A DNA stretch of 25,704 nt from Methanosarcina sp. Ant1 (GTDB lineage: Archaea > Halobacteriota > Methanosarcinia > Methanosarcinales > Methanosarcinaceae), in NCBI GenBank assembly GCA_001714685.2, contig MDTP02000037.1, positions 1-25,704 of the forward strand. Direction: 5' to 3'. The notes beneath the pieces were generated by a model, which saw only the letters and a list, made by a program, of their open reading frames with translations, was not told the origin of the DNA and did not search any database. Of this stretch, positions 3,901-23,800 are shown one piece after another (positions within the stretch are counted from its first letter, which is position 1; each line of letters starts with the position of its first letter). The position numbers and the translations under genes were made by a program.

Positions 3901-4126
3901 AGTAGGGTAGGTGGATACATCATAAATTTTAGCCAAATGTTTGAAGTGTCGCTTCATTACGAATTCCGAATTTGTGGCCCAGAAGAAAAAGTGAGATTTC
4001 TTTAGAAATACTTCAAAAAATTAATTCAGAATGTTCGTTATTGGTATCGTTTTTCTGTAAATTAAAGGGTCAAAATGAAAAAAGCGTGATTCCAGAGGAA
4101 AACGAGAGCAAACTTCCAGAATTCGG

Positions 4127-4140
4127 TTTTTGGCCAAAAA
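4127..4140 (-). terminator. Perfect palindrome / oligo-T just downstream of the Cmr-operon stop
   Basis: TTTTTGGCCAAAAA lies 15-28 nt past the TGA at 4155-4157 on the minus strand. Oligo-T tracts are typical archaeal termination signals. Confidence 0.3.
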
Positions 4141-4154
4141 GCATAAAATACAAC

Positions 4155-5063
4155 TCATAATGGTTCAGTTACTGTTTTTTCTTCCCATAGAAGTTGAATC
4201 AGTATACCTATAAAAAATGAAAAACTAGCATAAACCAATATTGATCTCCAATGAAGCGTCGAGGGATCTAATAATTTTATTGAAATGTATGTGTATATAA
4301 AAAGATATGAAAAGAAAGTTGACCAACCGAAACCCCATACTAATATTGGAAAGATCCTACTGATAATTTTTGAATTAAAATAGTTCATTGGCAATGATCC
4401 GCGAATGATTTTGCTACACTCGAAAAAGAAATAAAAAAAAGATGACAGAAATGTGAAAACTAAAAAATAATAAGAATAGTTACTATTTAATATACCACTA
4501 CCAAACTTCATGAGATCTCCAGAAGAAGCAATCAATATAATCCCAACAAGACTGGCACTCAACATCCTCGGGAGAAACAACTTAAATAAATTTAAACTTA
4601 TAATATCTCGATGCTTAAAACAAAGCTCCCAGGCTCCTATCCAATTATATCTTTTGAGGAGGAAATCGATGCATTCCGTCAGATAGTATTTTTTAGCTCC
4701 GGTGCTTAAGTAGTTAAAAACCACGTCTCCATTAATAATTTTCATTAGATCTTCTTCGCGACTTATGTCTATGCACTCTGCACTTAAAATTGAAAACACA
4801 TAGTCACATTTTTCACTGAGACAACATTTTAGCCAGTAGTGTTGCCAGAGTGCTTTATTGTGTTCTTCCAACCCAATTTTCCCGATTTGGATATTTAGTG
4901 CTAATGTTTGAACAGCAATAGCTTCTTCAGGAAATTTTACCGCTTCAGTAGGAATTTTAGCAGGAGCTACATTTATTTTTTCAGTTCCAACATAGTTATT
5001 GAATTTTGTTAGAGTACCTATTTGTTCAAAACTGTTGCGCAAAGAGATTAATTTTTTATCCAT
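4155..5063 (-). CDS. Type III-associated membrane protein: ~160-aa Cys-rich soluble N-terminal domain plus four predicted TM helices
   Basis: 302-aa ATG ORF. Hydrophobic segments are at about aa 163-182, 196-216, 234-260 and 273-293. Its ATG (5061-5063) is 1 nt from the stop of the upstream CARF gene. I recognise no family motif. Confidence 0.7.
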   Translation of the reverse strand: MDKKLISLRNSFEQIGTLTKFNNYVGTEKINVAPAKIPTEAVKFPEEAIAVQTLALNIQIGKIGLEEHNKALWQHYWLKCCLSEKCDYVFSILSAECIDISREEDLMKIINGDVVFNYLSTGAKKYYLTECIDFLLKRYNWIGAWELCFKHRDIISLNLFKLFLPRMLSASLVGIILIASSGDLMKFGSGILNSNYSYYFLVFTFLSSFFYFFFECSKIIRGSLPMNYFNSKIISRIFPILVWGFGWSTFFSYLFIYTYISIKLLDPSTLHWRSILVYASFSFFIGILIQLLWEEKTVTEPL

Positions 5064-5064
5064 G

Positions 5065-5832
5065 TTAATCGAACCGCTCTGGGGGGAGATGAATTAAGAT
5101 CTCTTTCCCAGTCTTCACATCAGAATATCCAGCTTTAAACTCACTAATTCCTGGTACTGGTGAATTAGGATCAAAGGACATGACTGTTATTTTTTCATAG
5201 TTAGTTTCTTCATACAAATAAAAAATTTTTGCACATGCATTTATATATGCAAATGCACCTAATAAGATACCCACCCCTTTATATCCACCTGTCAAATTGA
5301 AAATATATTCCTCGTTTTCATTTTCCTCAAATTTAGTTATGGATTTTTGCCATATCTCAAGTAGTGCAGATCCAAATCTTTCAGCATCTGAAGGGTCAAG
5401 ACCAATTATCGGCCATTTTTCAATCTCAATTCCTGGTAATAAATTATTTTCTTTAAGAACATTATATATCACATTTGCACAAAATGAACCTTCTTTGTTA
5501 TCTGAATGAAGAAGGATGACTTTATCACCATTCCCCAGAGATCCTTTTTGACTGTTATCATAGTAAATCTTTATAGCTTTTAGTGACGCCAGCTCAGCAG
5601 GAAGATCTTTCATATATGCTAGATTTTCCCATGAAAAAGGTTCGAATTCTTTGGAGAGATCACAATCCTTCTCCAACGCTTCTTTTAGTTTACTATTGCA
5701 AGTTGATTCATAATCCATTCTTTCTTTTTCACTTCCCAGACCTAAAAAAGAATTATCGCAAAGTCCTCCATATCTCCAGCAACATGATTTGAAAAGACTT
5801 GTTCCGCAGGTTGTAATTATTGTTCTTGGCAT
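5065..5832 (-). CDS. CARF-domain protein (Cas_APE2256-like), with no recognisable effector domain
   Basis: 255 aa. Motifs are an N-terminal TTCGTSLF, PAELASLK, DKVILLHSDNKEG and FNLTGGYKGVG, the canonical CARF Rossmann signatures. Its ATG directly abuts the cmr6 stop (TAAATG). Confidence 0.75.
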   Translation of the reverse strand: MPRTIITTCGTSLFKSCCWRYGGLCDNSFLGLGSEKERMDYESTCNSKLKEALEKDCDLSKEFEPFSWENLAYMKDLPAELASLKAIKIYYDNSQKGSLGNGDKVILLHSDNKEGSFCANVIYNVLKENNLLPGIEIEKWPIIGLDPSDAERFGSALLEIWQKSITKFEENENEEYIFNLTGGYKGVGILLGAFAYINACAKIFYLYEETNYEKITVMSFDPNSPVPGISEFKAGYSDVKTGKEILIHLPPERFD

Positions 5833-6657
5833 TTAACACACCCTCTGTTCAAAATAACCATAGCTAGAATCTGTTTTTGCACCGATTCCAAAAGTTTTCA
5901 GTGCATTTGTAATAAGTCCCCTTACCAGATCCAGATCTTCTTGTACATTTTCTTTGCCGTATCCGACTAAAGGAGCAATTGCAAACTCGAATTCTATCCC
6001 TTTTTTCACAGCAATAAAGTGTACTGGGACTGGATTTTGGTCGTCTCTTGGAAATTTATTTTTTTGGTAGTAGTCCTGATAATGTGGAGTAAAGACATCC
6101 AGTTCAAAGAAATCAGATAGTGAGTCTCTATTAACGTTTTTAGGCCATGCATCAGCAAATAATATATTTCCCCTTTGAGATTCTTTTTCTGCAGGTGAAT
6201 TTCCAAAAATTCTCTTCTTAAATCCTTCATCGATAATTTCAAACTCATCGCAATAATGTCTTGTAACTCCCTTTATTGCAGAGCCTGAAATTATGGGAAA
6301 TCCATAATATGGATGAATTAAAATAGAATTTTTGAGAATTGATTCTCCCCCATGATTAACTATAACTCTGGTTTTGGTATTAAGGGAAAATGACATTATT
6401 CCAGGCAGAGAGTTCTTTCGATTTTTTAAATAAGAGTAACTAGTAACTTCCAGCGGGATTTTATATTTTATTAATCTCTCAAGGTGCTGAACTTTACAAT
6501 TATCCTTTCTATTTGGAGAGTAAGTTGGAGTGTCATCCTGAGTTATTCCCCATAAAAAATATTTGTCAAAAATCAGAGCTGGATTTACTTTTTCGGAATT
6601 AGAGATTCCTTTCACACACTTGATATTTTTAACCCATTTTGAATCCGAGAGAACCAT
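5833..6657 (-). CDS. cmr6: Cmr6 (type III-B RAMP/Cas7-like subunit)
   Basis: Motifs are HPYYGFPIISGSAIKGVTRHY, GNILFADAWP, FTPHYQDYY and FGIGAKTDSSYGYF. I prefer the ATG at 6657, 2 nt after the cmr5 stop. The maximal ORF starts at a TTG at 6705 and would overlap cmr5 by 46 nt. Confidence 0.85.
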   Translation of the reverse strand: MVLSDSKWVKNIKCVKGISNSEKVNPALIFDKYFLWGITQDDTPTYSPNRKDNCKVQHLERLIKYKIPLEVTSYSYLKNRKNSLPGIMSFSLNTKTRVIVNHGGESILKNSILIHPYYGFPIISGSAIKGVTRHYCDEFEIIDEGFKKRIFGNSPAEKESQRGNILFADAWPKNVNRDSLSDFFELDVFTPHYQDYYQKNKFPRDDQNPVPVHFIAVKKGIEFEFAIAPLVGYGKENVQEDLDLVRGLITNALKTFGIGAKTDSSYGYFEQRVC

Positions 6658-6659
6658 TT

Positions 6660-7070
6660 TTAGTCCCCACTCTGCAGCATTGCATCTGAAAACCTTTTGA
6701 GCCAAAGAATAAGAGCCTTTGATTCCTGGGACTTTTGTATTATCTCATCATCCGTACATTCAAGAAGAGATAGATAAAGTTTCAATGGACTTAATTTCTC
6801 ATTATTACCCATAATCCACTTCAAGATATGTCCCGCAAGAAATTCATAGTGAGTGTAACTTTTCTGACCTTCATCTCTCCCATTTTCTTTTGTTTTGCTA
6901 ATGTAAAAGGAAAGAGTTTGTATTAGTCCTGATTTTTGGATTAGAGCACCAGAAGAACGAACTGCACTGTGGTATTTTTTTTCACGTTCATCTCCTTCTC
7001 TTTTGATGTATTCAATACATCCATATGCATACTCAGCTCGCTCATGATCCAGATTTTTGCCAACTATCAT
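6660..7070 (-). CDS. cmr5: Cmr5 (Cas11 small subunit)
   Basis: 136 aa, helical. The stretch AVRSSGALIQKSGLIQTLSFYISK matches the Cmr5 pattern. It sits between cmr4 and cmr6, with an ATGA overlap to cmr4. Confidence 0.75.
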   Translation of the reverse strand: MIVGKNLDHERAEYAYGCIEYIKREGDEREKKYHSAVRSSGALIQKSGLIQTLSFYISKTKENGRDEGQKSYTHYEFLAGHILKWIMGNNEKLSPLKLYLSLLECTDDEIIQKSQESKALILWLKRFSDAMLQSGD

Positions 7071-8032
7071 TCTATTCCCTCCTGACTTTTTTCGCCCGCA
7101 ATACCATTTACAGAAAGGTTTGATAGTGAAAGCCTGGTAATCCCCTTTCCTGTAGTTTCGTCTCCTCCTATCTGGATTACTGTAGGTAAATATTTAACAA
7201 AATTGTTCTTAACTTCAGTTGCACTTAATGCACAGTCTTTTTTTCTGGATCTTTCAAAAATCAGAGTACTATACATAATAGTTTCAGAGGGGAGGTACTC
7301 TGTATAACGAAGTGAACCGTCTACAGTAGTTCCACTATCTCCAATTCTAATATTTGGAACTATCTCAGTAGCGTTAGTAACAAAATATCTGAATATATCG
7401 TCGTCCACCAAGACGAATTTTTTCTCAAATTCACTCTTCAAGAAACTATCTTTACCATATACTTTTTCTCCAATCACCTTTGCAATGATCTCAATTTCCT
7501 GTGAATCCTCACAAGTAATCGGAAATTCCTCCAGGAATATTTGAGTAGTTTTTGGCATGTATAACTCTTTTTTCCCAGAAGGGCTTACCATGGCCTTGTT
7601 TAGACCTGAGTGAACTTTTTTTAAAGGATTGGTAAGTTTTGAAGATAATGATTCCATGTCCATCAGACAAAGCCTTTCATAAAATCGCCAAAGTACATGT
7701 GGACTTGTTATCCAAGCAAAGCATCCCCTGACAGATCTTACGGGAAAAGCTAGAATCTGCCCGTCTCCAAAAGAAATTGCTCCAGAATGTTTCTCTCCAT
7801 TTCCAGGAGATGGACCAAAAAGCATATCAAAATCTATGGAGCCTCTTTCTTCATATGAATCTCTAAGGACCCCTTTTATGGATGATGCTTGTATTATAGG
7901 AAATTGCGTTGTTCTTTCGCGTAAGATTGGATTATCTACGATTCCAAGACCTTCCCCAGAGCCATTATGAAGAGGGGTAACAACGTTTACAAACATAATG
8001 TCGTATTCATGAAGCTTGTTCTCTTGTGTCAT
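7067..8032 (-). CDS. cmr4: Cmr4 (Cas7 backbone subunit, target-RNA cleaving)
   Basis: 321 aa. The stretch VTPLHNGSGEGLGIVDNPILRERTTQFPIIQASSIKGVLRD includes the conserved Asp of the Cmr4 active site (IVDNP) and a C-terminal GGDETTGKG. Confidence 0.85.
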   Translation of the reverse strand: MTQENKLHEYDIMFVNVVTPLHNGSGEGLGIVDNPILRERTTQFPIIQASSIKGVLRDSYEERGSIDFDMLFGPSPGNGEKHSGAISFGDGQILAFPVRSVRGCFAWITSPHVLWRFYERLCLMDMESLSSKLTNPLKKVHSGLNKAMVSPSGKKELYMPKTTQIFLEEFPITCEDSQEIEIIAKVIGEKVYGKDSFLKSEFEKKFVLVDDDIFRYFVTNATEIVPNIRIGDSGTTVDGSLRYTEYLPSETIMYSTLIFERSRKKDCALSATEVKNNFVKYLPTVIQIGGDETTGKGITRLSLSNLSVNGIAGEKSQEGIE

Positions 8033-8033: not shown

Positions 8034-9185
8034 TTACCAACAACCTATTAAAGATATACCGAAGCCAGCACTGCAGTATTCGTCAGACAAACTAGCTCCA
8101 AAATTATATTTCTCAAAAAATTTTGTGAATTTTTCTTTGTTCCAGGAATTTGCTTCAAAAAAATAAACGCTACCAGCACGAACTGCTTTTTTTATGGGTC
8201 TCGGTTGTCCTCCAAAGTCATTTTTGTTAGCCTTCCACCCGCTAATATACAGTGGTTTGTTGACAGCCGCTCCAACAAGTACAGCATCACTAAATTCTGC
8301 TGGTAGTTCTAGACGCCATCCGTTTTTAAAAATAGCCGGACTCGCAAAATATATGAAAAATTTTTTCTTATTTTGAATCTCCCTTAAGATCTCTGGATTT
8401 TCTGTAATCAATTTGTTGTTTTTACATTTGACTGCAACTTTCTTTCTCTCTCCTCCAAGTGTTAGTATTTTATTATGGAGATCGGATTCTTCGATACCTT
8501 CAGCAACTATCGTAAAACCTGATTCTATTAGCTTTTGTTTTCTTAGCTGATCTCTAAAACGCAAGTTTACGGCTGTATAAAGGAAATGATCCTCAGGACT
8601 TTTTGAATATTTTGAAATTACGTGTCCGTATCTCGTTTCTTGAATAAAAAAAGAATTTTCAGGCTCAGAGGAGATAGTTGAAAAGGAACTAAGTCTTCCT
8701 GCAAGGTATTTCATTAGTTCTTCAACAGGAATATATTCTTCTAAGGGCTTAAGTTCTAATCCCAAAACATTAGGTATTTTTAATGGTTTTATTTTTTTGT
8801 CAATGATGTCCCACATACATTGATTGTTTTCATAAGGAAACAATACATGGGGCACATATGGACGCCTTGTTACTTCTATCCATAAATTTGATGGCGGTGG
8901 AAAATATGTTTTTTCTCCTTTTTGCAGGAATGGACCTTTGAGTTTTAAAGGAGTATTTAGAAGCTTTTGGTCGTATTTCCCAAGTTTTGGGTGTTTATAT
9001 TCTCCAGATACAAATTTAATTCTATCAACTTCTGAAGTATCTTCGAGTACAGCATTCCCGATTGCTCCATAAAATGTCAAAGGGGACGGGAAATTGAAGT
9101 CTGCTGTGGATTCTTCTCCAGCATTAAATGAGCGAGCATCTCTAAAAAAAAGTGTATCAAGAGGTTTGAGATCAATCTGGATCAC
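8034..9185 (-). CDS. cmr3: Cmr3 (Cas5-like subunit)
   Basis: 383 aa with a GTG start in a GTGA overlap with the cas10 stop. The N-terminus is LKPLDTLFFRDARSFNAGE...FPSPLTFYGAIGNAVL and the C-terminus is glycine-rich (SAGFGISLIG). Confidence 0.8.
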   Translation of the reverse strand: MIQIDLKPLDTLFFRDARSFNAGEESTADFNFPSPLTFYGAIGNAVLEDTSEVDRIKFVSGEYKHPKLGKYDQKLLNTPLKLKGPFLQKGEKTYFPPPSNLWIEVTRRPYVPHVLFPYENNQCMWDIIDKKIKPLKIPNVLGLELKPLEEYIPVEELMKYLAGRLSSFSTISSEPENSFFIQETRYGHVISKYSKSPEDHFLYTAVNLRFRDQLRKQKLIESGFTIVAEGIEESDLHNKILTLGGERKKVAVKCKNNKLITENPEILREIQNKKKFFIYFASPAIFKNGWRLELPAEFSDAVLVGAAVNKPLYISGWKANKNDFGGQPRPIKKAVRAGSVYFFEANSWNKEKFTKFFEKYNFGASLSDEYCSAGFGISLIGCW

Positions 9186-11092
9186 TTCAAATCACCCCTT
9201 CCTGTCTCCTCCCTTACAAAAAATAGAGCTATTTGGAGGAAGTTTTCAAAGTTTTCTTTCGCAGTTTCAATTGATTTGTTCTTATCAGGGTCTGCCATAT
9301 AAAAGAATAATTCCGTTATTAAATCCAAAGTAAGAATTACATCCTTGAATTTAAGTTGCCAGAGTTTAGATCCTGAAGGTATATGCCGTTTTAGCAACCT
9401 ACTTAACTCCGATTTAAACATCTTCTCATTTAGTTCCAATGTAGACCTATACTCGTTATATTTATAGAAAGAAGAAAGTTCTTCCATAAATTCATGAACG
9501 AAACCCGTACTCAGCTTATTCTCTGGACCTTCAAGCATAAATGAAATAAAACAACTCAAAATATCCAAAATTTTTATCGAACCTAATTCTTGTAAATTCG
9601 GTATTTCAATTTCCCATTTATAACCCCATGTAACAACTGATCCTGAAAACAGTCTTAGCGTAATACAGAAGGCGTCCTTATCTTTAAACAATTCTTTTGC
9701 TTGATCTACATTTTTCCTTGCTTCTTCTAATCCTCTACGAAGAGGGTCTTTGTGATGAAGGATTACAATTCCGGCACTGATAGTTTGTTTTATATTCGAT
9801 TCATTGAATTCGCTAATGAAAGAGGATCTTGCTTTATTAGCTGTTGAAAGAGATCTTTCCAGAGGAAGAAATGCAAGTAGGTCGTCTCCTCCTGAATAAA
9901 CGCACAGACCATTACCTTCTCTGTCATCCCTTATCAACTCAGACGTATTTGCTCCAGTATCTGCTAAAATTTCACTTAGTTTTTTCTGATAATCTATGGT
10001 GAAATCAGTATCTTTGATGATTTCCCCTGAAGCAAGTTTTACCTCTCCAGACATGAGTTTCCCCATGTTATCTCCATCCATCATCAAAATGGAGTAGTAT
10101 TTTGACGGTTCTTTTATTCCAAGTGATTCATAAACTGCACGCAACTTTTTTTTGGTGTCCTCGCAGAGTCTTCTGAATTCTTGATCATCAGGAGCTTCAT
10201 ATTCTTTTTTGAAGAAATCAAAATTTAAATAATCTTCATAATAATATTCTCCATTTTTGTGTGTGATCCCAATATATTCCCCAATTTCACGAATTTTTTC
10301 AGCAAATTCTTTGACCTCCGTTTTCTCATTTTTTTGTTCAATTAATTTTTTTGCAGATGCAGCTGAAATGTCCATTACTGAATCAAACTTTTGGTCATTT
10401 ACCCCGATATCATCCGGATTAAGTAATCGCTTCAATAAGCAGATTGGACATAGTACTTCATTTTCTCTTATTCTTGATTTCAATTTTTTATGAACGCTTG
10501 TGTAAATTTCTGATGCACATTCTCTGCGACCACATTGGCTACATTTTTGAACACATTCTCCTTCCCATGATTCAAAATTTCGTGTTACTTTTCTTTCATC
10601 GAAAAAGCGAAGAATTTCTTTCACTTTCAATTTGTATGAATTATTCAGTTCTTCTATCGTTACAGGAACTGCAACCCAATTTATATAAAAAGGGGATTTC
10701 ATTTTTTGGTTATAATGTCCTCTGCAATCATAAGAAAGTTTCAAATAGAACTTTTTTTGTACATCATTCCAAAAGTTGCATAATCCATTTTCCATCTGAG
10801 AAAGCGTTTCATCCAGTTTTGACTTTGGAATTACAGCCATGTAAATATTAGGAAGAGAAGACAAACGTTCTTTAGAATATTTAATATGTGGATAAATTAT
10901 AGATTTTGGGCCATAAGTTTCATATAATGGCTTCATTGAGTTTAATGTAGCTAAAGAAAGCAAACGACTTCCTATATATAGGTCCCTTGTTTTTCTTGCT
11001 TCACTGATGAATTCTTGAACAGGACCAATCGAAACTCTGAGAAGGCAGAATTCATTACCATAAGTCTTCATATTTTCGATCAATTCATTCAT
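9182..11092 (-). CDS. cas10: Cas10/Cmr2 without an HD domain, cyclase GGDD motif intact
   Basis: 636 aa. The protein begins about 20 aa before SIGPVQEFISEARKTRDLYIGSRLLS, which normally follows the HD domain. Cys cluster: CVQKCSQCGRREC...CPIC. Palm motifs are ILMMDGDNMG and VYSGGDDLLAF. GGDD is at aa 401-404, nt 9881-9892. Confidence 0.9.
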   Translation of the reverse strand: MNELIENMKTYGNEFCLLRVSIGPVQEFISEARKTRDLYIGSRLLSLATLNSMKPLYETYGPKSIIYPHIKYSKERLSSLPNIYMAVIPKSKLDETLSQMENGLCNFWNDVQKKFYLKLSYDCRGHYNQKMKSPFYINWVAVPVTIEELNNSYKLKVKEILRFFDERKVTRNFESWEGECVQKCSQCGRRECASEIYTSVHKKLKSRIRENEVLCPICLLKRLLNPDDIGVNDQKFDSVMDISAASAKKLIEQKNEKTEVKEFAEKIREIGEYIGITHKNGEYYYEDYLNFDFFKKEYEAPDDQEFRRLCEDTKKKLRAVYESLGIKEPSKYYSILMMDGDNMGKLMSGEVKLASGEIIKDTDFTIDYQKKLSEILADTGANTSELIRDDREGNGLCVYSGGDDLLAFLPLERSLSTANKARSSFISEFNESNIKQTISAGIVILHHKDPLRRGLEEARKNVDQAKELFKDKDAFCITLRLFSGSVVTWGYKWEIEIPNLQELGSIKILDILSCFISFMLEGPENKLSTGFVHEFMEELSSFYKYNEYRSTLELNEKMFKSELSRLLKRHIPSGSKLWQLKFKDVILTLDLITELFFYMADPDKNKSIETAKENFENFLQIALFFVREETGRGDLK

Positions 11093-12189
11093 AGGGTGCC
11101 TCCATTTAAATTGTTGACAAAAACATTTTGTCCATCTATTAGCATATTTTTAAGGTAATCTAATGCACAATTATTTGGATCTTTTTCGACGTTTTTTTGC
11201 TGGCACCAACTAACTACAGGAATGAATTTTTCGACTTTATCCAGCCTTATTTTGTGAAATCTTATGAATACAGGGGAAGCCATACGATGTGTGCTTCTTG
11301 CCCATCCTAATCCATCACAATTTGAATCGCCGTGAAATTTGGCAATTGCATCGTTTCTGTCGATGAAACCAGCATTCCCAACAAAGATCTGCTCACAACT
11401 TCGTAAAATGAAGAAAGAAGAACTTTTAGGAGCACTTGTTATCGAAACGTCGGCAAATATATTTTTACTGCTTGTAAATTTATTTTCTTCAATCCATCGA
11501 CGAAACAATTCCCAAACTAAGCTCAAACCTTTCTGTATATGTCCTTCGAGTCCTTCAAGATCAACAAAAGTTTGTTTTATCGGAAGCTCTATTTTCTTTC
11601 CATTTAAGTGAAACGAAAAAGGATTGTTTTCTTTTAAGGGACAGATAACTGGAGAACCAAATCCCCGTCTTTCTCTTTTTCCAACTGAACCTAAATTACC
11701 CCATACCCAGATAGTAGAAAATAGAACCTTTAACTCCATTTCAGACATAGTACTACGGGGGATAATTTGTATTGTGTATGAAGAGTTTTCAAGGTAACCC
11801 TGGCTTATTGCTGGATTTCTTGATTTCCCAGTGGATCTACACTCGTAACATCCTTTTCCTCTACAATTACGGCAGGGTTTATTAAAGCCAAGTTTTATGT
11901 TATCGTCTGGAAAATGACTTTCAGTATCAATAATCATTCTAAATTTTGCGCCGATCTTGTCGCCGTTTGAATCTTTAGTATCGGCAGAACCAAATATATT
12001 ACTTTCTAAAAGAAGTAACTCCTCCTTTTTTATGTCCCTGAACATGCCCCCTATTACAGCTCTAAACCAAAAACGCCAAGATCCTCTGAGAGCCTTTCCC
12101 GTAAGACCAGCACTATCAGCAGAGTATTTATTTGCTCCATCAATAAGTAGGGGTGTAACGAACCTGACTTTAAATTCCTTTACTTCCAC
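11089..12189 (-). CDS. cmr1: Cmr1 (RAMP subunit) with an inserted CxxCxGxGCxxC zinc knuckle
   Basis: 366 aa with a GTG start. The N-terminus is FVTPLLIDGA...LTGKALRGSWRFWFRAV and the glycine loop is GKRERRGFGS. The stop is in an ATGA overlap with cas10. Confidence 0.8.
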   Translation of the reverse strand: MEVKEFKVRFVTPLLIDGANKYSADSAGLTGKALRGSWRFWFRAVIGGMFRDIKKEELLLLESNIFGSADTKDSNGDKIGAKFRMIIDTESHFPDDNIKLGFNKPCRNCRGKGCYECRSTGKSRNPAISQGYLENSSYTIQIIPRSTMSEMELKVLFSTIWVWGNLGSVGKRERRGFGSPVICPLKENNPFSFHLNGKKIELPIKQTFVDLEGLEGHIQKGLSLVWELFRRWIEENKFTSSKNIFADVSITSAPKSSSFFILRSCEQIFVGNAGFIDRNDAIAKFHGDSNCDGLGWARSTHRMASPVFIRFHKIRLDKVEKFIPVVSWCQQKNVEKDPNNCALDYLKNMLIDGQNVFVNNLNGGTL

Positions 12190-12255: not shown

Positions 12256-12930
12256 TTATACGCGAATTTTTCTCACAGTCCCAAACCCTTTCGCAACCCC
12301 TTTCCCTACCCCCATAAAATCCGGAATCAAAAAATTGGCTATAAAACCACCTTTAAAAGAAGTAAAATCCATCTTTTTGAATTTTGAACTTCTGAGCTCC
12401 ACATCAACATCACATTTTATAGTATCAGGAACCGTATACCCGAAAGCCTTTGACATGGAGAGCAGATTTCCTATCAGGGTCTTTCGAAGTAGTTCCTTTT
12501 GCTCTTCAGGGTTGTCGATCTCAGAGAACCTTTCTTCGTTTTCGTCATTGAAGGCAAGCCAGGGGGTGAGGAATTCGTAAAAGTAGATGCCTTTTGTAAG
12601 GCCAAATTCCTGTTTTTTGATCCTCATTGATCTGTCTGTGATTTCAAAGTCCTCGTGAGGGAGAGTAACCGTGTCAAATTTGTCAAATAAACCTTTCAAG
12701 GTTTCTGCCCCTTCGTTTATACCGACAATGAGAGGCATCCTGCCAAGGACCTTGTACTGCACAAGAGGGTAGCGGTAGAGGAACCTGTCTGTGTTATGGT
12801 TGTGGAGCTGGTCATATTCATTGAATTTTGACGCAAAGAAACCACGGATCTGATTTGCGTCTCCCCTGAACTCTTCTGTGCCTTCAAAAGTCATTTCAAG
12901 GGTCTTGAGTTTAATGTTTTTCTGATTCAT
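12256..12930 (-). CDS. cas6: Cas6 crRNA-processing endoribonuclease
   Basis: 224 aa. It has RYPLVQYKV and the C-terminal glycine-rich loop GVGKGVAKGFGTV typical of Cas6. It lies immediately upstream of cmr1. Confidence 0.85.
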   Translation of the reverse strand: MNQKNIKLKTLEMTFEGTEEFRGDANQIRGFFASKFNEYDQLHNHNTDRFLYRYPLVQYKVLGRMPLIVGINEGAETLKGLFDKFDTVTLPHEDFEITDRSMRIKKQEFGLTKGIYFYEFLTPWLAFNDENEERFSEIDNPEEQKELLRKTLIGNLLSMSKAFGYTVPDTIKCDVDVELRSSKFKKMDFTSFKGGFIANFLIPDFMGVGKGVAKGFGTVRKIRV

Positions 12931-13051: not shown

Positions 13052-14215
13052 TTAAATAAATCCTTTAATTTTTTTATTAAAACATTGCTCAATTTTTTCA
13101 AGACCGGCGGAGCAATCCGTATGCCTGTAATAGTTCACCCAGGGGTCGACAACTCTATAGATATTTTTAATTAAGTTTTCAAGAGACCGATTCTCATTTT
13201 CATCACCGGGATTTGATTTTTCTATGCTTTCTATATTTCCTATATTTTCTATGCTATCTATTACTTTCTCGATGGATCCTTCGGTAGGTATGACCCTGAT
13301 ACCTCCCTTCACCCCTTTTTCATCTACATTTTCCTGAAAATAGAAGCCTACGAACTCGAACCCGCTCCCTATACTCCCGACATAGGTCTTTTCTTTGTTT
13401 AATCCAAGACCCAGTACAGCCAGAACAGCCTCAACCCTGTCCTTGTCGATCCATTCCCTGGAAAGAATTACAAAGTCATCTGCAAAACGCACAAGGTGTT
13501 CTACTGAGTCGCCTTCAACGTTCTTTAGACCTATTTCAGTCCATTGATTATCGAACTGGTCAAGATAGAAGTTTAATAGAAGAGGCGAGATTATCCCACC
13601 CTGAAGCAGCCCTTTTCGAGGAGATTTCCCTGAGCAACCTGCTGCTGAGCCTTTTTCGAGCCAGGACTCGACCATGGAAATTACAAGCTTGTCCTCGATC
13701 CTTCTTTTAAGAGCTTTCATGAGTTTATCATGTGGAATGCTGTCAAAGCAGTCTTCTATATCTCCCTTCAGGTAATGGGTGCTTCCGGTTTCCAGCCATT
13801 TGTAGACCTCAAGGCTGGCCAGTTTTGCGGACCTGTATGCTCGATAACCGTAAGAGCAGTCTTCAAAATCAGCTTCAAAAATAGGCTCAAGAATGAGTTT
13901 TACAGCTCCCTGAACAAGCCGGTCTTTTACAGTCAGGATTCCAAGCTGTCTTGTCTCTCCATTTCGTTTTGGAATTTTGACTCTTTTCACTTCATCAGCA
14001 ACAAACCGATCCCCTTCAAGTTCTTTCTTTACGGCCCGGATAAAACCTTCAACACCTGAAGCCTCTATCTGTTGGATGGTAAGAGAATCCAAACCAGTAC
14101 CTTTAGTATTCCTGTTCAGGTTCTCCCATGCCGTGTAAAGGACTTCGTCTTTTAAAAGCAGTTTTTTAAGCTTTTTGAATCGCTTGCCTGGATTCTTCTT
14201 AGCTTTGTTATACAA
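13052..14215 (-). CDS. Stand-alone CRISPR-associated reverse transcriptase (group II intron-like RT)
   Basis: 387 aa. RT motifs are RVKIPKRNGETRQLG, DIEDCFDSIPH, GLLQGGIISPLLLNFYL, VRFADDFVIL (the YxDD box), LNKEKTYV and FEFVGFYF. The thumb-like stretch is IYRVVDPWVNYYRH. The mapped start is a TTG at 14215. The frame is open upstream to 14275, with an in-frame ATC at 14249-14251 behind a strong SD. Confidence 0.85.
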   Translation of the reverse strand: MYNKAKKNPGKRFKKLKKLLLKDEVLYTAWENLNRNTKGTGLDSLTIQQIEASGVEGFIRAVKKELEGDRFVADEVKRVKIPKRNGETRQLGILTVKDRLVQGAVKLILEPIFEADFEDCSYGYRAYRSAKLASLEVYKWLETGSTHYLKGDIEDCFDSIPHDKLMKALKRRIEDKLVISMVESWLEKGSAAGCSGKSPRKGLLQGGIISPLLLNFYLDQFDNQWTEIGLKNVEGDSVEHLVRFADDFVILSREWIDKDRVEAVLAVLGLGLNKEKTYVGSIGSGFEFVGFYFQENVDEKGVKGGIRVIPTEGSIEKVIDSIENIGNIESIEKSNPGDENENRSLENLIKNIYRVVDPWVNYYRHTDCSAGLEKIEQCFNKKIKGFI

Positions 14216-14398: not shown

Positions 14399-16698
14399 GT
14401 TTCAATCCTTGTTTTCTTGGCAGCTACTTCTCGACGTAAATAAAAAAACGTATGATAAGGTATGATAAAATAGTTTCAATCCTTGTTTTCTTGGCAGCTA
14501 CTTCTCGACACCGAAAAGGCCACGGCAGCACTATCTTCAACCGAGTTTCAATCCTTGTTTTCTTGGCAGCTACTTCTCGACAGCACAAACAGAAGACCGC
14601 ATGGAAATTAATGAAAAGAGGTTTCAATCCTTGTTTTCTTGGCAGCTACTTCTCGACTAGAGAACAATTAGATCCCCGGGATTGGACCGTCCAGTTTCAA
14701 TCCTTGTTTTCTTGGCAGCTACTTCTCGACTAGAGAACAATTAGATCCCCGGGATTGGACCGTCCAGTTTCAATCCTTGTTTTCTTGGCAGCTACTTCTC
14801 GACGGCATAAGCTTGACTAAGGAGGAAAGACTAAACAAGTTTCAATCCTTGTTTTCTTGGCAGCTACTTCTCGACCAACAAAAAAACAAGGTAGTTGGAG
14901 GAGAAAGTATGGTTTCAATCCTTGTTTTCTTGGCAGCTACTTCTCGACCTGGTGATTGGGTTTAGAGGGGGTGAGGAAGAATAATCGTTTCAATCCTTGT
15001 TTTCTTGGCAGCTACTTCTCGACTGAAAAAGAATTGCAGGAAGCTGTTTCTTGGATTAAGTTTCAATCCTTGTTTTCTTGGCAGCTACTTCTCGACTTAT
15101 GATGCGAATACGGAGAAGGAAATGTCTGAAGGTTTCAATCCTTGTTTTCTTGGCAGCTACTTCTCGACTCGTTGCTACTTTTAATGATCCGGATGAGGTA
15201 ATTTTGGTTTCAATCCTTGTTTTCTTGGCAGCTACTTCTCGACAAAAAACCAAACAACACAAAAACCAACCAAATAAAGTTTCAATCCTTGTTTTCTTGG
15301 CAGCTACTTCTCGACGAAATACTGGGAACTTAATCACGGTAAATCACTTAAGTTTCAATCCTTGTTTTCTTGGCAGCTACTTCTCGACAGGTCTCAAGAG
15401 TGTAAGCATAGATTTTATAAAAGTTTCAATCCTTGTTTTCTTGGCAGCTACTTCTCGACAAAAATGAGATATGCAACTATCGAATCGGTCGGAAAGTTTC
15501 AATCCTTGTTTTCTTGGCAGCTACTTCTCGACTGAAGATAGTGCTTGGATTGAGATCAGAAACCTGAGTTTCAATCCTTGTTTTCTTGGCAGCTACTTCT
15601 CGACCAGGGGGCTGGAGTGAATGCTTCTGGGTTTGCTCAGAAGTTTCAATCCTTGTTTTCTTGGCAGCTACTTCTCGACTCTGAGGTAGAAAATGTATAT
15701 CGAGACGTCCTTAAGTTTCAATCCTTGTTTTCTTGGCAGCTACTTCTCGACTATTGTAATCAGCAACTCAGCCAATTTCGAAAATCAAAGTTTCAATCCT
15801 TGTTTTCTTGGCAGCTACTTCTCGACAAAAAATGAAATCAATAACAAACGACCTTGTAGGAGGTTTCAATCCTTGTTTTCTTGGCAGCTACTTCTCGACC
15901 AGGGTATTATATAAACATAATTGTTCAACCTGATAAGTTTCAATCCTTGTTTTCTTGGCAGCTACTTCTCGACTGAGCTCACCCGCATTGAAAAGTGTTG
16001 GGAACAGAGTTTCAATCCTTGTTTTCTTGGCAGCTACTTCTCGACCACAAGCACGAACCTAAATAGCCGGACGGACAACAAAGGTTTCAATCCTTGTTTT
16101 CTTGGCAGCTACTTCTCGACATGCAGAGGTGCAAAAGAATGATAAAGAAATTTTTGTTTCAATCCTTGTTTTCTTGGCAGCTACTTCTCGACCTTCACTA
16201 AGATTTCCAAAAGACAGAAAGTACCAAGTTTCAATCCTTGTTTTCTTGGCAGCTACTTCTCGACATGATAAAGAAATTTTTTACTTTGACGATGTTAGTA
16301 GTTTCAATCCTTGTTTTCTTGGCAGCTACTTCTCGACCAACGCGTAGCCCGCACTGCAGGATATGGATCCCAGTTTCAATCCTTGTTTTCTTGGCAGCTA
16401 CTTCTCGACCATATGCTAATCTTATGGGAGTTAACCTCGAAGGAGGTTTCAATCCTTGTTTTCTTGGCAGCTACTTCTCGACTACCGTAATAGACATGTC
16501 TAATTTTAATGGTATTCGTTTCAATCCTTGTTTTCTTGGCAGCTACTTCTCGACCTGGGACATTTCCAGTTACATTAACCGTAGAGGAGTTTCAATCCTT
16601 GTTTTCTTGGCAGCTACTTCTCGACTACGAATTCGACCATTACGGTAGAACATATACCATAGTTTCAATCCTTGTTTTCTTGGCAGCTACTTCTCGAC
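14399..16698 (-). CRISPR. CRISPR array 1: 32 x 37-bp repeats, 31 spacers of 34-39 bp
   Basis: The repeat is gtttcaatccttgttttcttggcagctacttctcgac, with all 32 copies apparently identical. Its reverse complement ends ATTGAAAC, the canonical 8-nt crRNA 5' tag, so transcription is inferred on the minus strand from the leader at 16699 onward. Confidence 0.97.
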
Positions 16699-19487: not shown

Positions 19488-22400
19488 ATTTGGAAGCCTT
19501 TTTTAGTGGATTTTGCTCGCGAATTTTAATTTTCGTGCTTAGTATGCCACACATAAGCATGATGTTTCAATCCTTGTTTTAGTGGATCTTGCTCGCGAAT
19601 CATACTTCCTAATGCTGCAACTACAATTGATAATTTAGTTTCAATCCTTGTTTTAGTGGATCTTGCTCGCGAATGGGCCTCTTGTTCACGGTGTATCCCG
19701 CTAATGAAAGAAGTTTCAATCCTTGTTTTAGTGGATCTTGCTCGCGAATAGGTGTATACTGGCTTTAATATCGCGGCCCGTATGGCAAATATTGTTTCAA
19801 TCCTTGTTTTAGTGGATCTTGCTCGCGAATTTCCGGGGACCACTTAGAAGGTACTCCCAAAACATGTTTCAATCCTTGTTTTAGTGGATCTTGCTCGCGA
19901 ATCATGATAGCCCGACTAAAACAATTAAGGATGTGTTGTTTCAATCCTTGTTTTAGTGGATCTTGCTCGCGAATACCTATGTGCCAAATCCTTATGCGGA
20001 GCCTGCAATGTTTCAATCCTTGTTTTAGTGGATCTTGCTCGCGAATCAGTCAATAAATTAACTTGGAGAAAAGAATTATGGGTTTCAATCCTTGTTTTAG
20101 TGGATCTTGCTCGCGAATACGTCTGCCAGCTCGTACACAGATCGTTCACACTCTGTTTCAATCCTTGTTTTAGTGGATCTTGCTCGCGAATTCGAATTTA
20201 TTAATACTGATACCGCTGATATTGTTAGTTTCAATCCTTGTTTTAGTGGATCTTGCTCGCGAATATTGTCTAGACTCAGTCAAAGCCTCGATGCGCATGG
20301 GCGATGTGTTTCAATCCTTGTTTTAGTGGATCTTGCTCGCGAATAACGAACTTCGTCAGCAATGTGACCGGTAATGTCACGTTTCAATCCTTGTTTTAGT
20401 GGATCTTGCTCGCGAATGCGTATAAAATCGATGTCCCCGACCGAAATGTGGACGTTTCAATCCTTGTTTTAGTGGATCTTGCTCGCGAATTCAAGAGGTC
20501 TGTACATGAACTTTGCGCTTAATCTAAGTTTCAATCCTTGTTTTAGTGGATCTTGCTCGCGAATATGAGATGGTGGTTTAAAATGACTTTATACGGGAAA
20601 AGTTTCAATCCTTGTTTTAGTGGATCTTGCTCGCGAATTGCTAGCTATTCTCCCAGAGTCCGTAAATATATCCTGTTTCAATCCTTGTTTTAGTGGATCT
20701 TGCTCGCGAATATATACTGCATTACCTGTATACGAGGATATTATATGGCGTTTCAATCCTTGTTTTAGTGGATCTTGCTCGCGAATCATGCCATTGGCGA
20801 GATTATTAACTGTATCTGTTGCGTTTCAATCCTTGTTTTAGTGGATCTTGCTCGCGAATTCAATACTGATACCGTTGATGTCGTTGATATCACAAGTTTC
20901 AATCCTTGTTTTAGTGGATCTTGCTCGCGAATGTTGATAAGCTGCTGTATATACAGTAAGATGGGTTGTTTCAATCCTTGTTTTAGTGGATCTTGCTCGC
21001 GAATCAGAATAGGGGAAAGACTACGCCTAAAGTTTATTTGTTTCAATCCTTGTTTTAGTGGATCTTGCTCGCGAATTTCCCATATTTTGATAACTCAATC
21101 CACTCAATGTTTGTTTCAATCCTTGTTTTAGTGGATCTTGCTCGCGAATCCGATAGCTCCGGTCCCGAACTTTACGCGCGCGATTTGTTTCAATCCTTGT
21201 TTTAGTGGATCTTGCTCGCGAATTGTTGAGCGTGTGCGATGTGTCGAGTTTAGTGACGGGTTTCAATCCTTGTTTTAGTGGATCTTGCTCGCGAATTTTT
21301 ATTTTCAAAAGAGAATATAAATACCCGAATGGTGTTTCAATCCTTGTTTTAGTGGATCTTGCTCGCGAATATATGTAGGGAAATATCTGATTACCCGAGG
21401 CTCGCAGGGTTTCAATCCTTGTTTTAGTGGATCTTGCTCGCGAATATATTTTATATCCTGTGGGATTAAGGCCTTATACAGAGTTTCAATCCTTGTTTTA
21501 GTGGATCTTGCTCGCGAATATTATATGACATGCTAAACTACCGAGTCATCTACGTTTCAATCCTTGTTTTAGTGGATCTTGCTCGCGAATTTGTTTTGAG
21601 ACAGTTCAGCACGTCTCAAATCGTGGCGTTTCAATCCTTGTTTTAGTGGATCTTGCTCGCGAATACAGAATATACGATCTGGGGAAGATGCAGGATAAGG
21701 GTTTCAATCCTTGTTTTAGTGGATCTTGCTCGCGAATCTAATGAAAGCTAATTTTACAGGAGCTAGATTTGGTTTCAATCCTTGTTTTAGTGGATCTTGC
21801 TCGCGAATAGGCTCTAATCTGCTGCACGCTATCGTTTTAAAGTGGTTTCAATCCTTGTTTTAGTGGATCTTGCTCGCGAATTTAAAAGTAATTCCAGCAG
21901 CAGCAGGAGCCGAAAATGTTTCAATCCTTGTTTTAGTGGATCTTGCTCGCGAATCTTTTGGTGCACATAACTTAATATCGACTTCTCTGTGTTTCAATCC
22001 TTGTTTTAGTGGATCTTGCTCGCGAATCTATCAGATAACAGGCAAGGGTATCCTAAGTTTTATGTTTCAATCCTTGTTTTAGTGGATCTTGCTCGCGAAT
22101 TTCATCTTTACGTGTAGAGTGGTACAAATGTATATAGTTTCAATCCTTGTTTTAGTGGATCTTGCTCGCGAATAATTACTCCGTTTTCGTGTACGGCAAC
22201 CAAAGGAACGTTTCAATCCTTGTTTTAGTGGATCTTGCTCGCGAATTTATAAAGCTGGGCATATATTTAGAAAGATAGAATAGTTTCAATCCTTGTTTTA
22301 GTGGATCTTGCTCGCGAATTGTAGCTGCATCGACTTCGTTTTCTGTTATTTCAGGGTTTCAATCCTTGTTTTAGTGGATCTTGCTCGCGAATTTCTCTCC

Positions 22401-23623: not shown

Positions 23624-23800
23624 AGGGCAAAATTTTCCGTTTTTTGGCCAGAAAAGGCACGAAATAAGCCCTTTTTCGGGGCTAAAATTCTTGTTGGAAA
23701 ATTATCAAACCCTTTATAAATACAAGAAAATCAGGGTTTTTGGCGGTTTGGAAACATCTGGACATATGCTTTTCTTTCTATTAAACTTTTCTTTTTAAAA
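23624..23800 (-). promoter_or_regulatory. Leader C of array 2
   Basis: It begins with AGGG like leader B. ttttccgttttttggccagaaaagg (23634-23658) is homologous to 4122-4143 in leader A. A TATA-like tttataaata at 23713-23722 lies about 90 nt from the first repeat. Confidence 0.45.

What the first reader, a model, noticed from the sequence alone, without database searches (positions are those of the whole stretch)
4155..5832. CARF-only protein plus 4-TM membrane protein coupled to the end of an HD-less Cmr operon: candidate split cOA-gated membrane effector
Seen in sequence:
- The cmr6 stop (5833-5835) directly abuts the ATG of a 255-aa ORF.
- That ORF's stop (5065-5067) is 1 nt from the ATG of a 302-aa ORF. 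Both are therefore the last cistrons of a run of tightly spaced genes (junctions from -4 to +2 nt) starting at cmr1.
- The 255-aa protein carries the CARF signatures TCGTS, PAELASL, DKVILLHSD and NLTGGYKG. It has no HEPN R-x4-6-H, nuclease or protease motif that I can see.
- The 302-aa protein has a ~160-aa Cys-rich soluble domain I cannot assign, followed by four hydrophobic helices.

Established knowledge: Cas10 with an intact GGDD makes cyclic oligoadenylates (cOA), which act through CARF or SAVED effectors. Known membrane effectors (Cam1, Csx23, CRISPR-associated CorA) are single polypeptides with other architectures.

Inference: no Csx1, Csm6, Can, NucC or similar effector is present in the window, and Cas10 lacks HD. 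This two-gene pair is therefore the best candidate for the immune output, with sensor and membrane-perturbing module on separate chains. Alternatively, the CARF protein is a ring nuclease and the membrane protein senses the signal itself. I cannot tell whether these families have already been catalogued.
Basis: partly seen in the sequence, partly recalled or inferred. Interest (0 to 1): 0.8.

Follow-up and report, generated by a model that had tools for sequence, protein, structure and literature searches.

The report
CARF sensor plus membrane protein pair
The last two genes of this archaeal CRISPR type III operon encode a signal-binding protein with no output domain and a four-helix membrane protein; the pair recurs together across archaea and bacteria and is probably the still-uncharacterised membrane "output" of these immune systems.

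Summary
A 255-aa CARF protein (5065-5832, minus strand) and a 302-aa membrane protein with four transmembrane (TM) helices (4155-5063, minus strand) close a tightly packed RT-cas6b-cmr1-6 operon. Its Cas10 has no HD domain and keeps an intact GGDD motif.

- **CARF protein.** It belongs to the CARF7 / Cas_APE2256 clade. Its closest solved relatives are the CARF domain of Cami1 and the ring nucleases Sis0811 and Sso1393. It has neither a RelE nor an HTH domain.
- **Membrane protein.** It matches no Pfam family or solved fold. It is a compact member of a large family (891 clusters) that ends in a near-invariant ...IGIxxQxxWEEKxxTEPL C-terminus. PADLOC catalogues the family as Mem_01. It is probably the "Cam3" of Hoikkala 2024 and the membrane family of Shmakov 2018.
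- **Conservation of the pair.** In about 37 of 41 loci, a stand-alone CARF gene sits directly upstream of the membrane gene. The loci include type III-B and III-D-like systems, always with HD-less, cyclase-competent Cas10.

The pair is therefore a real, mobile signalling cassette. Which chain senses the signal is unresolved. A split sensor/effector is most likely (about 0.45). The main rival is a self-sensing membrane effector with a dedicated ring nuclease (about 0.25). The family is already catalogued but its function has not been characterised.

The parts
4155..5063 (-). 302-aa membrane protein. It has an N-terminal helical cytosolic domain (about 1-160), four TM helices and a conserved C-terminal tail ...GILIQLLWEEKTVTEPL. 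It is a short (4-TM) member of the Mem_01 / probable Cam3 superfamily.
   Evidence: ORF. No Pfam or NCBIfam hit. PADLOC Mem_01 matches only residues 275-302, E 0.031. AF2 model pLDDT 84.6. No PDB fold match. 891 family clusters. hhalign against the long forms gives probability 100%, E 1.7e-42.
5065..5832 (-). 255-aa stand-alone CARF protein of the CARF7 / Cas_APE2256 clade. It is Cami1-like but has no RelE and no HTH domain. It carries the TCGTS and NLTGGYK motifs.
   Evidence: Pfam PF09651 E 4.7e-16. PADLOC CARF_RelE E 1.3e-24, over the CARF part only. AF2 model pLDDT 91.7. Foldseek matches Sis0811, Cami1 and Sso1393 at E 2e-7 to 2e-6. Profile against Cami1 8phb E 1.4e-9.
5833..6705 (-). cmr6. 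The likely start is the ATG at 6657.
   Evidence: TIGR01898 E 7e-41.
6660..7070 (-). cmr5
   Evidence: PF09701 E 2.4e-20.
7067..8032 (-). cmr4
   Evidence: TIGR02580 E 8e-63.
8034..9185 (-). cmr3
   Evidence: PF09700 E 1.2e-48.
9182..11092 (-). cas10/cmr2, 636 aa. It is HD-less and has GGDD at residue 401.
   Evidence: Cmr2_N plus palm2 domains, no HD domain. GGDD motif.
11089..12189 (-). cmr1
   Evidence: TIGR01894 E 1.4e-9.
12256..12930 (-). cas6b
   Evidence: Cas6b_N and Cas6b_C domains.
13052..14215 (-). Group-II-intron-type reverse transcriptase at the head of the operon. The same order, RT-cas6b-cmr1-6-CARF-TM, is found in cultured Methanosarcina.
   Evidence: RVT_1 plus GIIM domains; TIGR04416 287.6 bits. 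Loci L060-L062.
14399..16697 (.). CRISPR array 1 (37-nt repeat GTTTCAATCCTTGTTTTCTTGGCAGCTACTTCTCGAC)
19564..23624 (.). CRISPR array 2 (repeat GTTTCAATCCTTGTTTTAGTGGATCTTGCTCGCGAAT)

Best explanation
The two genes form one functional cassette that provides the signalling output of an HD-less type III-B system.

**Shown**
- Cas10 keeps its cyclase motif.
- The 255-aa protein is a CARF7 domain closest to the cA4-sensing CARF of Cami1, but it carries no effector domain.
- The 302-aa protein belongs to a large membrane-protein family. Its conserved residues cluster at the cytoplasmic face of a 4-TM bundle: P165/R166, Y211/E215, R236 and G286-I287-Q290-W293-E294-K296, plus the C-terminal tail.
- The two genes are translationally coupled, and the pairing holds whichever member is used as the starting point. 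It is found across type III-B and III-D-like loci of archaea and bacteria.

**Inferred**
- On target-RNA recognition, Cas10 makes a cyclic oligoadenylate, most likely cA4.
- A dimer of the CARF protein binds it. In the ligand-bound state the dimer engages the cytosolic N-domain and vestibule of the membrane protein.
- This opens or disorders the 4-TM bundle, so the membrane depolarises and growth stops.
- The CARF probably also cleaves cA4 slowly (S12 and K185, equivalent to Sis0811 S12 and K169). That would make it both the sensor and the timer.
For: **CARF identity**
- Searches place it in CARF7, closest to Cami1.
- No RelE, HEPN or HTH domain was found. The C-terminal part (residues 214-247) is three beta strands.

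**Cas10**
- It is HD-less with GGDD here and in 9 other pair-bearing loci.

**Adjacency of the pair**
- CARF immediately upstream of the membrane gene in 12/12 Pfam-annotated contexts.
- About 37 of 41 distinct loci overall. Of the 24 gene pairs extracted, 19 have junctions from -11 to +21 nt.
- Reverse check: three CARF homologues chosen through the CARF search alone (P0040, P0090, P0092) all have a family member directly downstream.
- The cassette occurs behind both cmr1-6 and csx19-type III-D operons. CARF and membrane-protein pairwise distances correlate (Pearson 0.65; 0 of 2000 permutations reach this).

**Absence of alternatives**
- Of 10 annotated loci with at least 8 kb of flank on each side, 8 show no other CARF/SAVED effector.

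**Membrane protein is more than an anchor**
- Intramembrane and interfacial polar residues are conserved across 891 clusters.

**Prior knowledge**
Against: - No interaction was tested.
- The C-terminal tail is equally conserved when the partner is a Cas_NE0113-type CARF and in non-CRISPR homologues with no CARF neighbour. The tail is therefore not a CARF-specific docking peptide.
- The CARF C-terminal 40 residues are poorly conserved, so no obvious conserved interface is visible.
- The partner CARFs come from the CARF7 clade that also holds the Crn1 ring nuclease. The NE0113-type partners look similar at the motif level, but their clade was not tested here. The catalytic Ser and Lys are invariant.
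- There is precedent for a membrane effector paired with a dedicated signal-degrading enzyme: CorA with NrN, and Cam1 with ring nucleases in 81% of loci (PMC12409355).
- The N-domain of the membrane protein carries conserved aromatic and basic residues (W73, Y76, W77, R102, R138, Y139) that could themselves bind a nucleotide.
Confidence: 0.45

Rival explanations
1. Self-sensing membrane effector plus a dedicated off-switch. The membrane protein binds the cyclic nucleotide itself, through its helical N-domain and cytoplasmic vestibule, as Csx23 does with a non-CARF domain. The CARF7 protein is a Crn1-like ring nuclease that resets the signal.
For: - By Foldseek, the Sis0811 and Sso1393 ring nucleases rank among the closest solved structures, interleaved with Cami1. 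S12 and K185 match the catalytic S12 and K169 of Sis0811 and are invariant.
- Cami1's CARF7 domain has ring-nuclease activity, and the membrane effector Cam1 sits next to ring nucleases in 81% of loci (PMC12409355).
- CorA is accompanied by signal-degrading enzymes (PMC11229360, PMC12255297).
- The alternative partners are Cas_NE0113-type stand-alone CARFs with similar motifs.
- The tail and N-domain core are conserved even where no CARF gene is adjacent.
- Conserved aromatic and basic residues lie at the cytosolic face.
Against: - By profile, the CARF is nearer to the sensor CARF of Cami1 (E 1.4e-9) than to Sso1393 (E 0.004). It is far below NCBIfam's ring-nuclease cut-off (18.3 against 600 bits).
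- The adjacency is near-obligate and fixed in order, it holds in both directions, and the genes are translationally coupled. That is tighter than for known ring nucleases, which are found with several different effector families.
- Locus L007 carries an additional Csx3/Crn3 gene.
- The N-domain has no detectable similarity to any nucleotide-binding fold.
Confidence: 0.25
2. Accessory or anchor protein, not an effector. The membrane protein tethers the CARF protein or the CRISPR machinery to the membrane, or modulates it. Immunity comes from Cmr4 RNA cleavage or from effectors encoded elsewhere in the genome.
For: - Shmakov 2018 proposed membrane anchoring for the uncharacterised type III membrane family (10.1101/270033).
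- The window is only one 25.8-kb contig, and other Methanosarcina genomes carry Can1-2-type effectors in other loci.
- Locus L064 has a Cas_Cas02710 gene 9 kb away.
Against: - Polar residues within and at the edge of the membrane (E215, R236, S248/S252, Q290, W293-K296) are conserved over 891 clusters. A passive anchor would not need them.
- The cassette moves between III-B and III-D backbones. That argues against a specific contact with one effector complex.
- The module is reused outside CRISPR with other N-terminal regions.
Confidence: 0.12
3. The pair serves the RT-linked adaptation or other housekeeping of these RT-associated type III variants, rather than interference.
For: RT or RT-Cas1 genes are present in most pair-bearing loci.
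Against: - The pair always ends the effector operon (after cmr6 or the last RAMP gene), not the cas1-cas2 module.
- Several loci have the pair without a nearby RT (L003, L007, L065).
- CARF domains are signal receptors of the interference pathway.
Confidence: 0.05

Closest known systems
Cam3 with its upstream 'Cami1'-annotated gene (Hoikkala, Graham & White 2024, PMC11229360)
   Same: - Cam3 is a membrane protein with a compact helix-rich N-terminal soluble domain followed by a TM bundle.
- It is always immediately downstream of an APE2256-family CARF gene in type III-B loci.
- It has no fold match and its function is described as 'enigmatic'.
   Different: - Cam3 is described with six TM helices. 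The window protein has four, while its long-form homologues (400-500 aa) have an extra insert of about 110 aa that is consistent with two more helices.
- No Cam3 sequence could be obtained, so identity with this family is inferred, not tested.
- The partner here lacks RelE. The paper's 'cami1' table itself contains APE2256 proteins of 237 and 277 aa, too short for a RelE domain. Their Cam3 partners may therefore also be RelE-less.
PADLOC Mem_01 (PDLC01155, 'Membrane protein (6TM) with a globular domain at N-terminus')
   Same: - The C-terminal 4-TM module and tail are shared.
- 31 of 40 family members hit the model (best E 1.9e-12).
- The deltaproteobacterial orthologue P0021 hits it at E 5.6e-9.
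   Different: - The window protein itself reaches only E 0.031, over its last 28 residues.
- It has four TM helices, not six.
- The N-terminal domains are not matched by the model.
Cami1 (CARF7-RelE, PDB 8phb/8phj)
   Same: - It is the best sequence-profile match of the CARF (E 1.4e-9).
- Motifs are shared: CGTS, SAExxSL and TGGxK.
- Foldseek E about 1e-6, TM-score 0.53-0.57.
   Different: There is no RelE domain, so this protein cannot be a ribosome-dependent RNase.
Crn1 large ring nucleases Sis0811 / Sso1393 (CARF7 + wHTH)
   Same: - Sis0811 is the top Foldseek hit (7pq3, E 1.8e-7).
- Equivalents of the catalytic Ser and Lys are present.
- Both are stand-alone proteins of similar size.
   Different: - There is no wHTH domain; the C-terminal part is three beta strands.
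- Sequence similarity is weak (3qyf E 0.004-0.014).
- These proteins are not known to pair with a membrane protein.
Single-chain cOA-gated membrane effectors: Cam1, Cap1, Csx23
   Same: All are type III ancillary proteins that link a cyclic-oligoadenylate signal to membrane depolarisation. This is the functional analogy proposed here.
   Different: - In those proteins the sensor and the TM helices are on one polypeptide, with two TM helices per subunit (as described for Cap1).
- The sensor families differ.
- PADLOC finds no sequence relation with the 302-aa protein.
CorA with NrN or SAM-AMP lyase
   Same: This is a membrane effector encoded next to, and sometimes fused with, the enzyme that degrades its signal. 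It is the precedent for the rival explanation.
   Different: The signal is different (SAM-AMP) and the folds are unrelated.

Membership tests
CARF superfamily, clade CARF7 / Pfam Cas_APE2256 (255-aa protein) | Match to PF09651 above the gathering score | tested here: met
   59.3 bits against a cut-off of 24.8, E 4.7e-16. PADLOC CARF7 models score E 1e-24 to 1e-8.
CARF superfamily, clade CARF7 / Pfam Cas_APE2256 (255-aa protein) | Rossmann-like fold with a G-T/S loop after beta-1 and a GGxK motif | tested here: met
   TCGTS at 8-12 and NLTGGYK at 179-185, invariant in 34 orthologues. AF2 model pLDDT 91.7. Foldseek probability 1.00 to CARF7 structures.
CARF superfamily, clade CARF7 / Pfam Cas_APE2256 (255-aa protein) | Binds a cyclic oligoadenylate | not testable with these tools
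   Needs ITC, EMSA or co-crystallisation.
Cami1 (CARF-RelE) | C-terminal RelE-family RNase domain | tested here: not met
   The protein ends at residue 255. The PADLOC CARF_RelE alignment covers only profile positions 2-166 of 294. Pfam finds no toxin domain.
Crn1 ring nuclease (large form, Sis0811/Sso1393) | Catalytic Ser after beta-1 and Lys of the GGxK motif | tested here: met
   S12 and K185 are invariant. The correspondence to Sis0811 S12 and K169 is at motif level only.
Crn1 ring nuclease (large form, Sis0811/Sso1393) | C-terminal winged-HTH domain | tested here: not met
   Residues 214-247 are predicted as three beta strands. No HTH family hit.
Crn1 ring nuclease (large form, Sis0811/Sso1393) | NCBIfam NF040951 'CRISPR system ring nuclease' cut-off | tested here: not met
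   18.3 bits against a cut-off of 600.
Crn1 ring nuclease (large form, Sis0811/Sso1393) | Cleaves cA4 to A2>P | not testable with these tools
   Needs an enzyme assay.
PADLOC Mem_01 (302-aa protein) | Significant match to PDLC01155 | tested here: inconclusive
   The window protein scores E 0.031 over residues 275-302. However, 31 of 40 aligned relatives hit the model, and hhalign to the long forms that hit Mem_01 gives probability 100%, E 1.7e-42.
PADLOC Mem_01 (302-aa protein) | Six TM helices after a globular N-terminal domain | tested here: not met
   Four TM helices. The N-terminal helical domain is present.
Cam3 (Hoikkala 2024) | Gene immediately downstream of an APE2256-type ('Cami1') gene in a type III-B locus | tested here: met
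   1-nt junction in the window. The same arrangement is found in 12/12 annotated loci.
Cam3 (Hoikkala 2024) | Helix-rich N-terminal soluble domain plus a six-helix TM bundle | tested here: not met
   The helical N-domain is present. The bundle has four helices here, and six are inferred only for the long-form homologues.
Cam3 (Hoikkala 2024) | Sequence homology to published Cam3 proteins | not testable with these tools
   No Cam3 sequence or accession is held in the paper text or its supplements.
Cam1 / Cap1 / Csx23 / CorA membrane effectors | Sensor domain and TM helices on one polypeptide, with sequence similarity to those families | tested here: not met
   The 302-aa protein hits no PADLOC model other than the weak Mem_01 match. 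It contains no CARF domain: the A2 profile found nothing significant in 200 family proteins (best E 0.029).

The most novel reading that the evidence does not exclude
The CARF7 protein and the 4-TM protein may form a two-chain, cyclic-oligoadenylate-gated membrane pore. It would be the first type III effector whose soluble sensor and membrane output are separate subunits.

The 4-TM plus WEEKxxTEPL module would then be a new, widespread family of membrane-effector modules (about 900 clusters). It would be plugged onto different CARF partners (APE2256-type or NE0113-type), onto both III-B and III-D backbones, and, outside CRISPR, onto other N-terminal sensor regions.
Probability: 0.35. Interest if true: 0.8.

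Novelty: new variant of a known kind. Interest (0 to 1): 0.6.

Why it matters
**Why the gap matters.** Type III CRISPR systems with HD-less Cas10 depend on signal-activated effectors. A sizeable set of loci has no recognised effector (PMC12409355 notes 31 ring-nuclease-bearing loci with none).

**What this cassette offers.** It is a strong candidate to fill part of that gap.
- It is conserved from Methanosarcina to Deltaproteobacteria, Nitrospirota and anammox bacteria.
- It is always found with cyclase-competent, HD-less Cas10.
- It is usually the only CARF-bearing element nearby.

**What would follow if the split design is right.**
- It would show that CARF sensors can act in trans on a membrane partner.
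- It would give a function to the 'enigmatic' Cam3/Mem_01 family.
- It would define a new pore or gating module with a striking invariant C-terminal motif.

**Testability.** The pair is also present in cultured Methanosarcina genomes with matching operon order (L060-L062). That makes genetic tests feasible in a tractable archaeon.

Tried and rejected
**Searches that found nothing**
- Pfam, NCBIfam and a PDB sequence-profile search of the membrane protein gave no hit.
- Foldseek of its AF2 model against the PDB gave nothing better than E 0.3.
- The viral-contig scan found no relative.
- There is no bacterial-type intrinsic terminator after the operon. Only a T-rich stretch follows the stop codon.
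- Literature searches for the pair in Methanosarcina or RT-linked type III papers found nothing specific.

**Tools or data not available**
- Complex prediction was tried with a Gly-Ser-linked CARF+TM fusion and a paired alignment of 13 loci.
- No Cam3 sequences could be recovered from the paper or its supplements.

**Searches that were too narrow**
- The genome-collection scan used a narrow pattern and returned only 2 loci.

**Ideas considered and rejected**
- A natural CARF-membrane protein fusion as a Rosetta-stone clue: none among 200 family proteins (best E 0.029).
- The C-terminal tail as a CARF-docking peptide: rejected because the tail is unchanged with NE0113-type partners and in non-CRISPR homologues.
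- The CARF as Cami1: rejected, no RelE domain.
- The CARF as a Csa3-like regulator: rejected, no HTH domain.
- A 'Cys-rich' metal-binding N-domain: rejected, only C80 and C81 are conserved.
Full report
**Observation.** The window is essentially a whole 25.8-kb contig of Methanosarcina sp. Ant1. The CARF protein is 100% identical to BGV40_03510. On the minus strand lies a compact operon:
- RT (13052-14215)
- cas6b (12256-12930)
- cmr1 (11089-12189)
- cas10/cmr2 (9182-11092)
- cmr3 (8034-9185)
- cmr4 (7067-8032)
- cmr5 (6660-7070)
- cmr6 (5833-6657 or 6705)
- a 255-aa ORF (5065-5832)
- a 302-aa ORF (4155-5063)

The cmr6 stop abuts the ATG of the 255-aa ORF, and that ORF's stop is 1 nt from the next ATG. 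Cas10 is 636 aa, begins with the Cmr2_N domain at residue 17, has no HD domain, and keeps GGDD at residue 401. The rest of the window holds:
- two large CRISPR arrays and repeat remnants
- cas1 and cas2
- a Csa3-like CARF-HTH gene
- an AAA_14/DUF4143 ATPase gene
- a PRiA4_ORF3 gene

There is no Csx1, Csm6, Can or NucC gene.

**The 255-aa protein.**
- It passes Pfam Cas_APE2256 (E 4.7e-16).
- It matches PADLOC's CARF7 models. The best is CARF_RelE (E 1.3e-24), but only over the CARF part of that model.
- An alignment of 34 orthologues shows invariant G10, S12, C18-W19, A79-E80 and A82 of the PAELASL motif, and N179, T181-G182-G183-Y184-K185 of the NLTGGYK motif. D103 is nearly invariant (at least 90%).
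- The AF2 model is confident (pLDDT 91.7). It has a CARF core followed by three beta strands at 214-247.
- The closest solved structures are the ring nuclease Sis0811 (E 1.8e-7), Cami1 (about 1e-6) and Sso1393.
- By sequence profile, Cami1 is nearest (E 1.4e-9) and Sso1393 is distant (E 0.004).

It is therefore a Cami1-like CARF7 domain without RelE, HEPN or HTH. It retains the Ser/Lys pair that is catalytic in Sis0811.

**The 302-aa protein.**
- It has no Pfam, NCBIfam or PDB sequence match.
- Its confident all-helical AF2 model (pLDDT 84.6) has no Foldseek match in the PDB.
- The distribution of Lys and Arg places both the N-domain and the C-terminus in the cytoplasm, with four TM helices between them.
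- A profile search of 1.84 billion representatives found 891 relatives at E up to 0.001, of which 326 score 1e-10 or better.
- Lengths are bimodal, about 275-350 aa and about 400-450 aa.
- Nearly all relatives end in ...IGI(F/L)xQxxWE(E/D)K(T/P)(I/V)T(E/Q/H)P(L/F/I)-COOH.
- The long forms align with the short ones over the whole length (hhalign probability 100%, E 1.7e-42). They carry an insert of about 110 residues between the N-domain and the conserved PR motif.
- The long forms, and the deltaproteobacterial orthologue of the window protein, hit PADLOC Mem_01, described as 'membrane protein (6TM) with a globular domain at N-terminus'. The window protein itself reaches only E 0.031.
- Conserved residues lie at the cytoplasmic ends of the helices (P165/R166, Y211/E215, R236, Q290-K296) and in the N-domain (W73, Q74, Y76, W77, C80, C81, R102-E103-D105, R138-Y139).

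**Conservation of the pair.**
- Every Pfam-annotated context has a 229-275-aa Cas_APE2256 gene directly upstream of the membrane gene, as the last two genes of a type III effector operon. This holds for 12 distinct contexts. They include Deltaproteobacteria, Ca. Ethanoperedens, Ca. Scalindua, several unnamed MAG and metagenome contigs, and cultured Methanosarcina.
- A metagenome scan added 51 loci. In my own HMM survey, about 32 of 41 distinct loci with enough upstream sequence have the APE2256-type CARF upstream. Four have a Cas_NE0113-type stand-alone CARF and one has another weak CARF-like protein. Only three related GC-rich, non-CRISPR contigs have none.
- No partner is long enough to contain RelE.
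- Of the 24 gene pairs extracted, 19 have junctions from -11 to +21 nt.
- The reverse test also holds. CARF homologues chosen only through the CARF search (P0040, P0090, P0092) are each followed by a family member.
- The cassette sits behind both cmr1-6 (III-B) and csx19-containing III-D-like operons. CARF and membrane-protein distances co-vary (Pearson 0.65; Mantel test 0 of 2000 permutations).
- All ten neighbouring Cas10 proteins inspected are 474-642 aa with GGDD or GGDE and no HD domain.
- Of the ten annotated loci with at least 8 kb of flank on each side, eight have no other CARF/SAVED effector nearby. L007 adds a small SAVED protein and Csx3. L064 has a Cas_Cas02710 gene 9 kb away.

**What is known.**
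- Shmakov et al. [quoted passage not shown]
- Hoikkala et al. 2024 named Cam3. [quoted passage not shown] Its function is called enigmatic, and it is possibly an accessory protein.
- Their 'cami1' table contains APE2256 proteins of 237 and 277 aa. Their Cami1 class therefore includes RelE-less CARF7 proteins, and the Cam3 partners may be of the kind seen here.
- I could not obtain a Cam3 sequence, so identity is probable but untested.
- Cami1's CARF7 domain is reported to have ring-nuclease activity, and Cam1 is accompanied by ring nucleases in 81% of loci.

**Mechanism.**
- *Shown:* a cyclase-competent, HD-less Cas10; a CARF with no output domain; a conserved partner membrane protein with conserved polar residues at the cytosolic membrane face; and pairing that holds in both directions as a mobile unit.
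- *Inferred as most likely (0.45):* the CARF dimer senses cA4 and gates the 4-TM protein, causing membrane perturbation and growth arrest. Slow cA4 cleavage by the CARF acts as a timer.
- *Main rival (0.25):* the membrane protein senses the signal itself, and the CARF is its dedicated ring nuclease. Three points support this rival: the catalytic Ser/Lys, the ring-nuclease relatives within CARF7, and the conservation of the tail and N-domain core where no CARF is adjacent.
- *Less likely (0.12):* a purely anchoring or accessory role. This fits poorly with the conserved residues inside the membrane and with the cassette's transfer between III-B and III-D backbones.

**Verdict.**
- The pair is a genuine, widely conserved type III signalling cassette.
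- The families are catalogued but not functionally characterised.
- The split sensor/effector idea is plausible and testable but not demonstrated.
- The window's copy is a compact 4-TM variant of the Mem_01 / probable Cam3 family.

Noticed in passing
window 17285-18310 (+): cas1 looks truncated at its 5' end. The Pfam match of the ATG-started ORF (17498-18310) begins at profile position 67. Cas1-like sequence continues about 40 codons upstream in frame but reaches stop codons without any ATG, GTG or TTG. In related loci Cas1 is fused to the RT; here the RT sits separately at the head of the cmr operon.
   Followed up: partly
window 14621-14766: One repeat-spacer unit of CRISPR array 1 is duplicated exactly: 14621-14693 equals 14694-14766.
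   Followed up: no
window 14399-16697, 19564-23624, 2628-2954, 677-733, 185-217: Two large arrays share the repeat 5' half GTTTCAATCCTTGTTTT but differ in the 3' half. Degenerate remnants of both repeat types lie downstream of the cmr operon.
   Followed up: no
window 3124-4138 versus 16734-17205: The stretch just downstream of the membrane gene is a 73-98% identical copy of the stretch between array 1 and cas1. It looks like a duplicated CRISPR leader or flank.
   Followed up: no
window 18575-19450 (+): A Csa3-like CARF-HTH gene (HFX_2341_N, Csa3_N, weak HTH_Crp_2 hits) overlaps the end of cas2. It is a second potential cOA-binding protein in the window, and probably a regulator.
   Followed up: partly
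L052-L054 (GC-rich metagenome contigs); P0209 (1213 aa); P0270 (792 aa): Members of the membrane family also occur outside CRISPR loci. They have long extra N-terminal regions and no adjacent CARF gene, and in L052/L053 a response-regulator-like gene lies upstream (my reading of its sequence; not scanned against Pfam). They keep the WE(D/E)xPITEPL tail and the N-domain core motifs.
   Followed up: partly
L026, L030, L035, L049: In some III-D-like loci the upstream partner of the membrane protein is a Cas_NE0113-type stand-alone CARF (Pfam E 4e-9 to 9e-14 for three of them; L035 judged by shared motifs) instead of the APE2256 type.
   Followed up: partly
L007 9882-10676: One pair-bearing locus also carries a 180-aa SAVED-domain protein and a Csx3/Crn3 gene directly after the membrane gene.
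   Followed up: no
L060-L062 (cultured Methanosarcina genomes, e.g. GCA_000744315.1): The same operon order, RT-cas6b-cmr1-6-CARF(275 aa)-TM(310 aa), is followed by SEC-C and PRiA4_ORF3 genes. The window also has a PRiA4_ORF3 gene, at 24007-24576. The CARF protein is seen on more than 100 contigs.
   Followed up: partly
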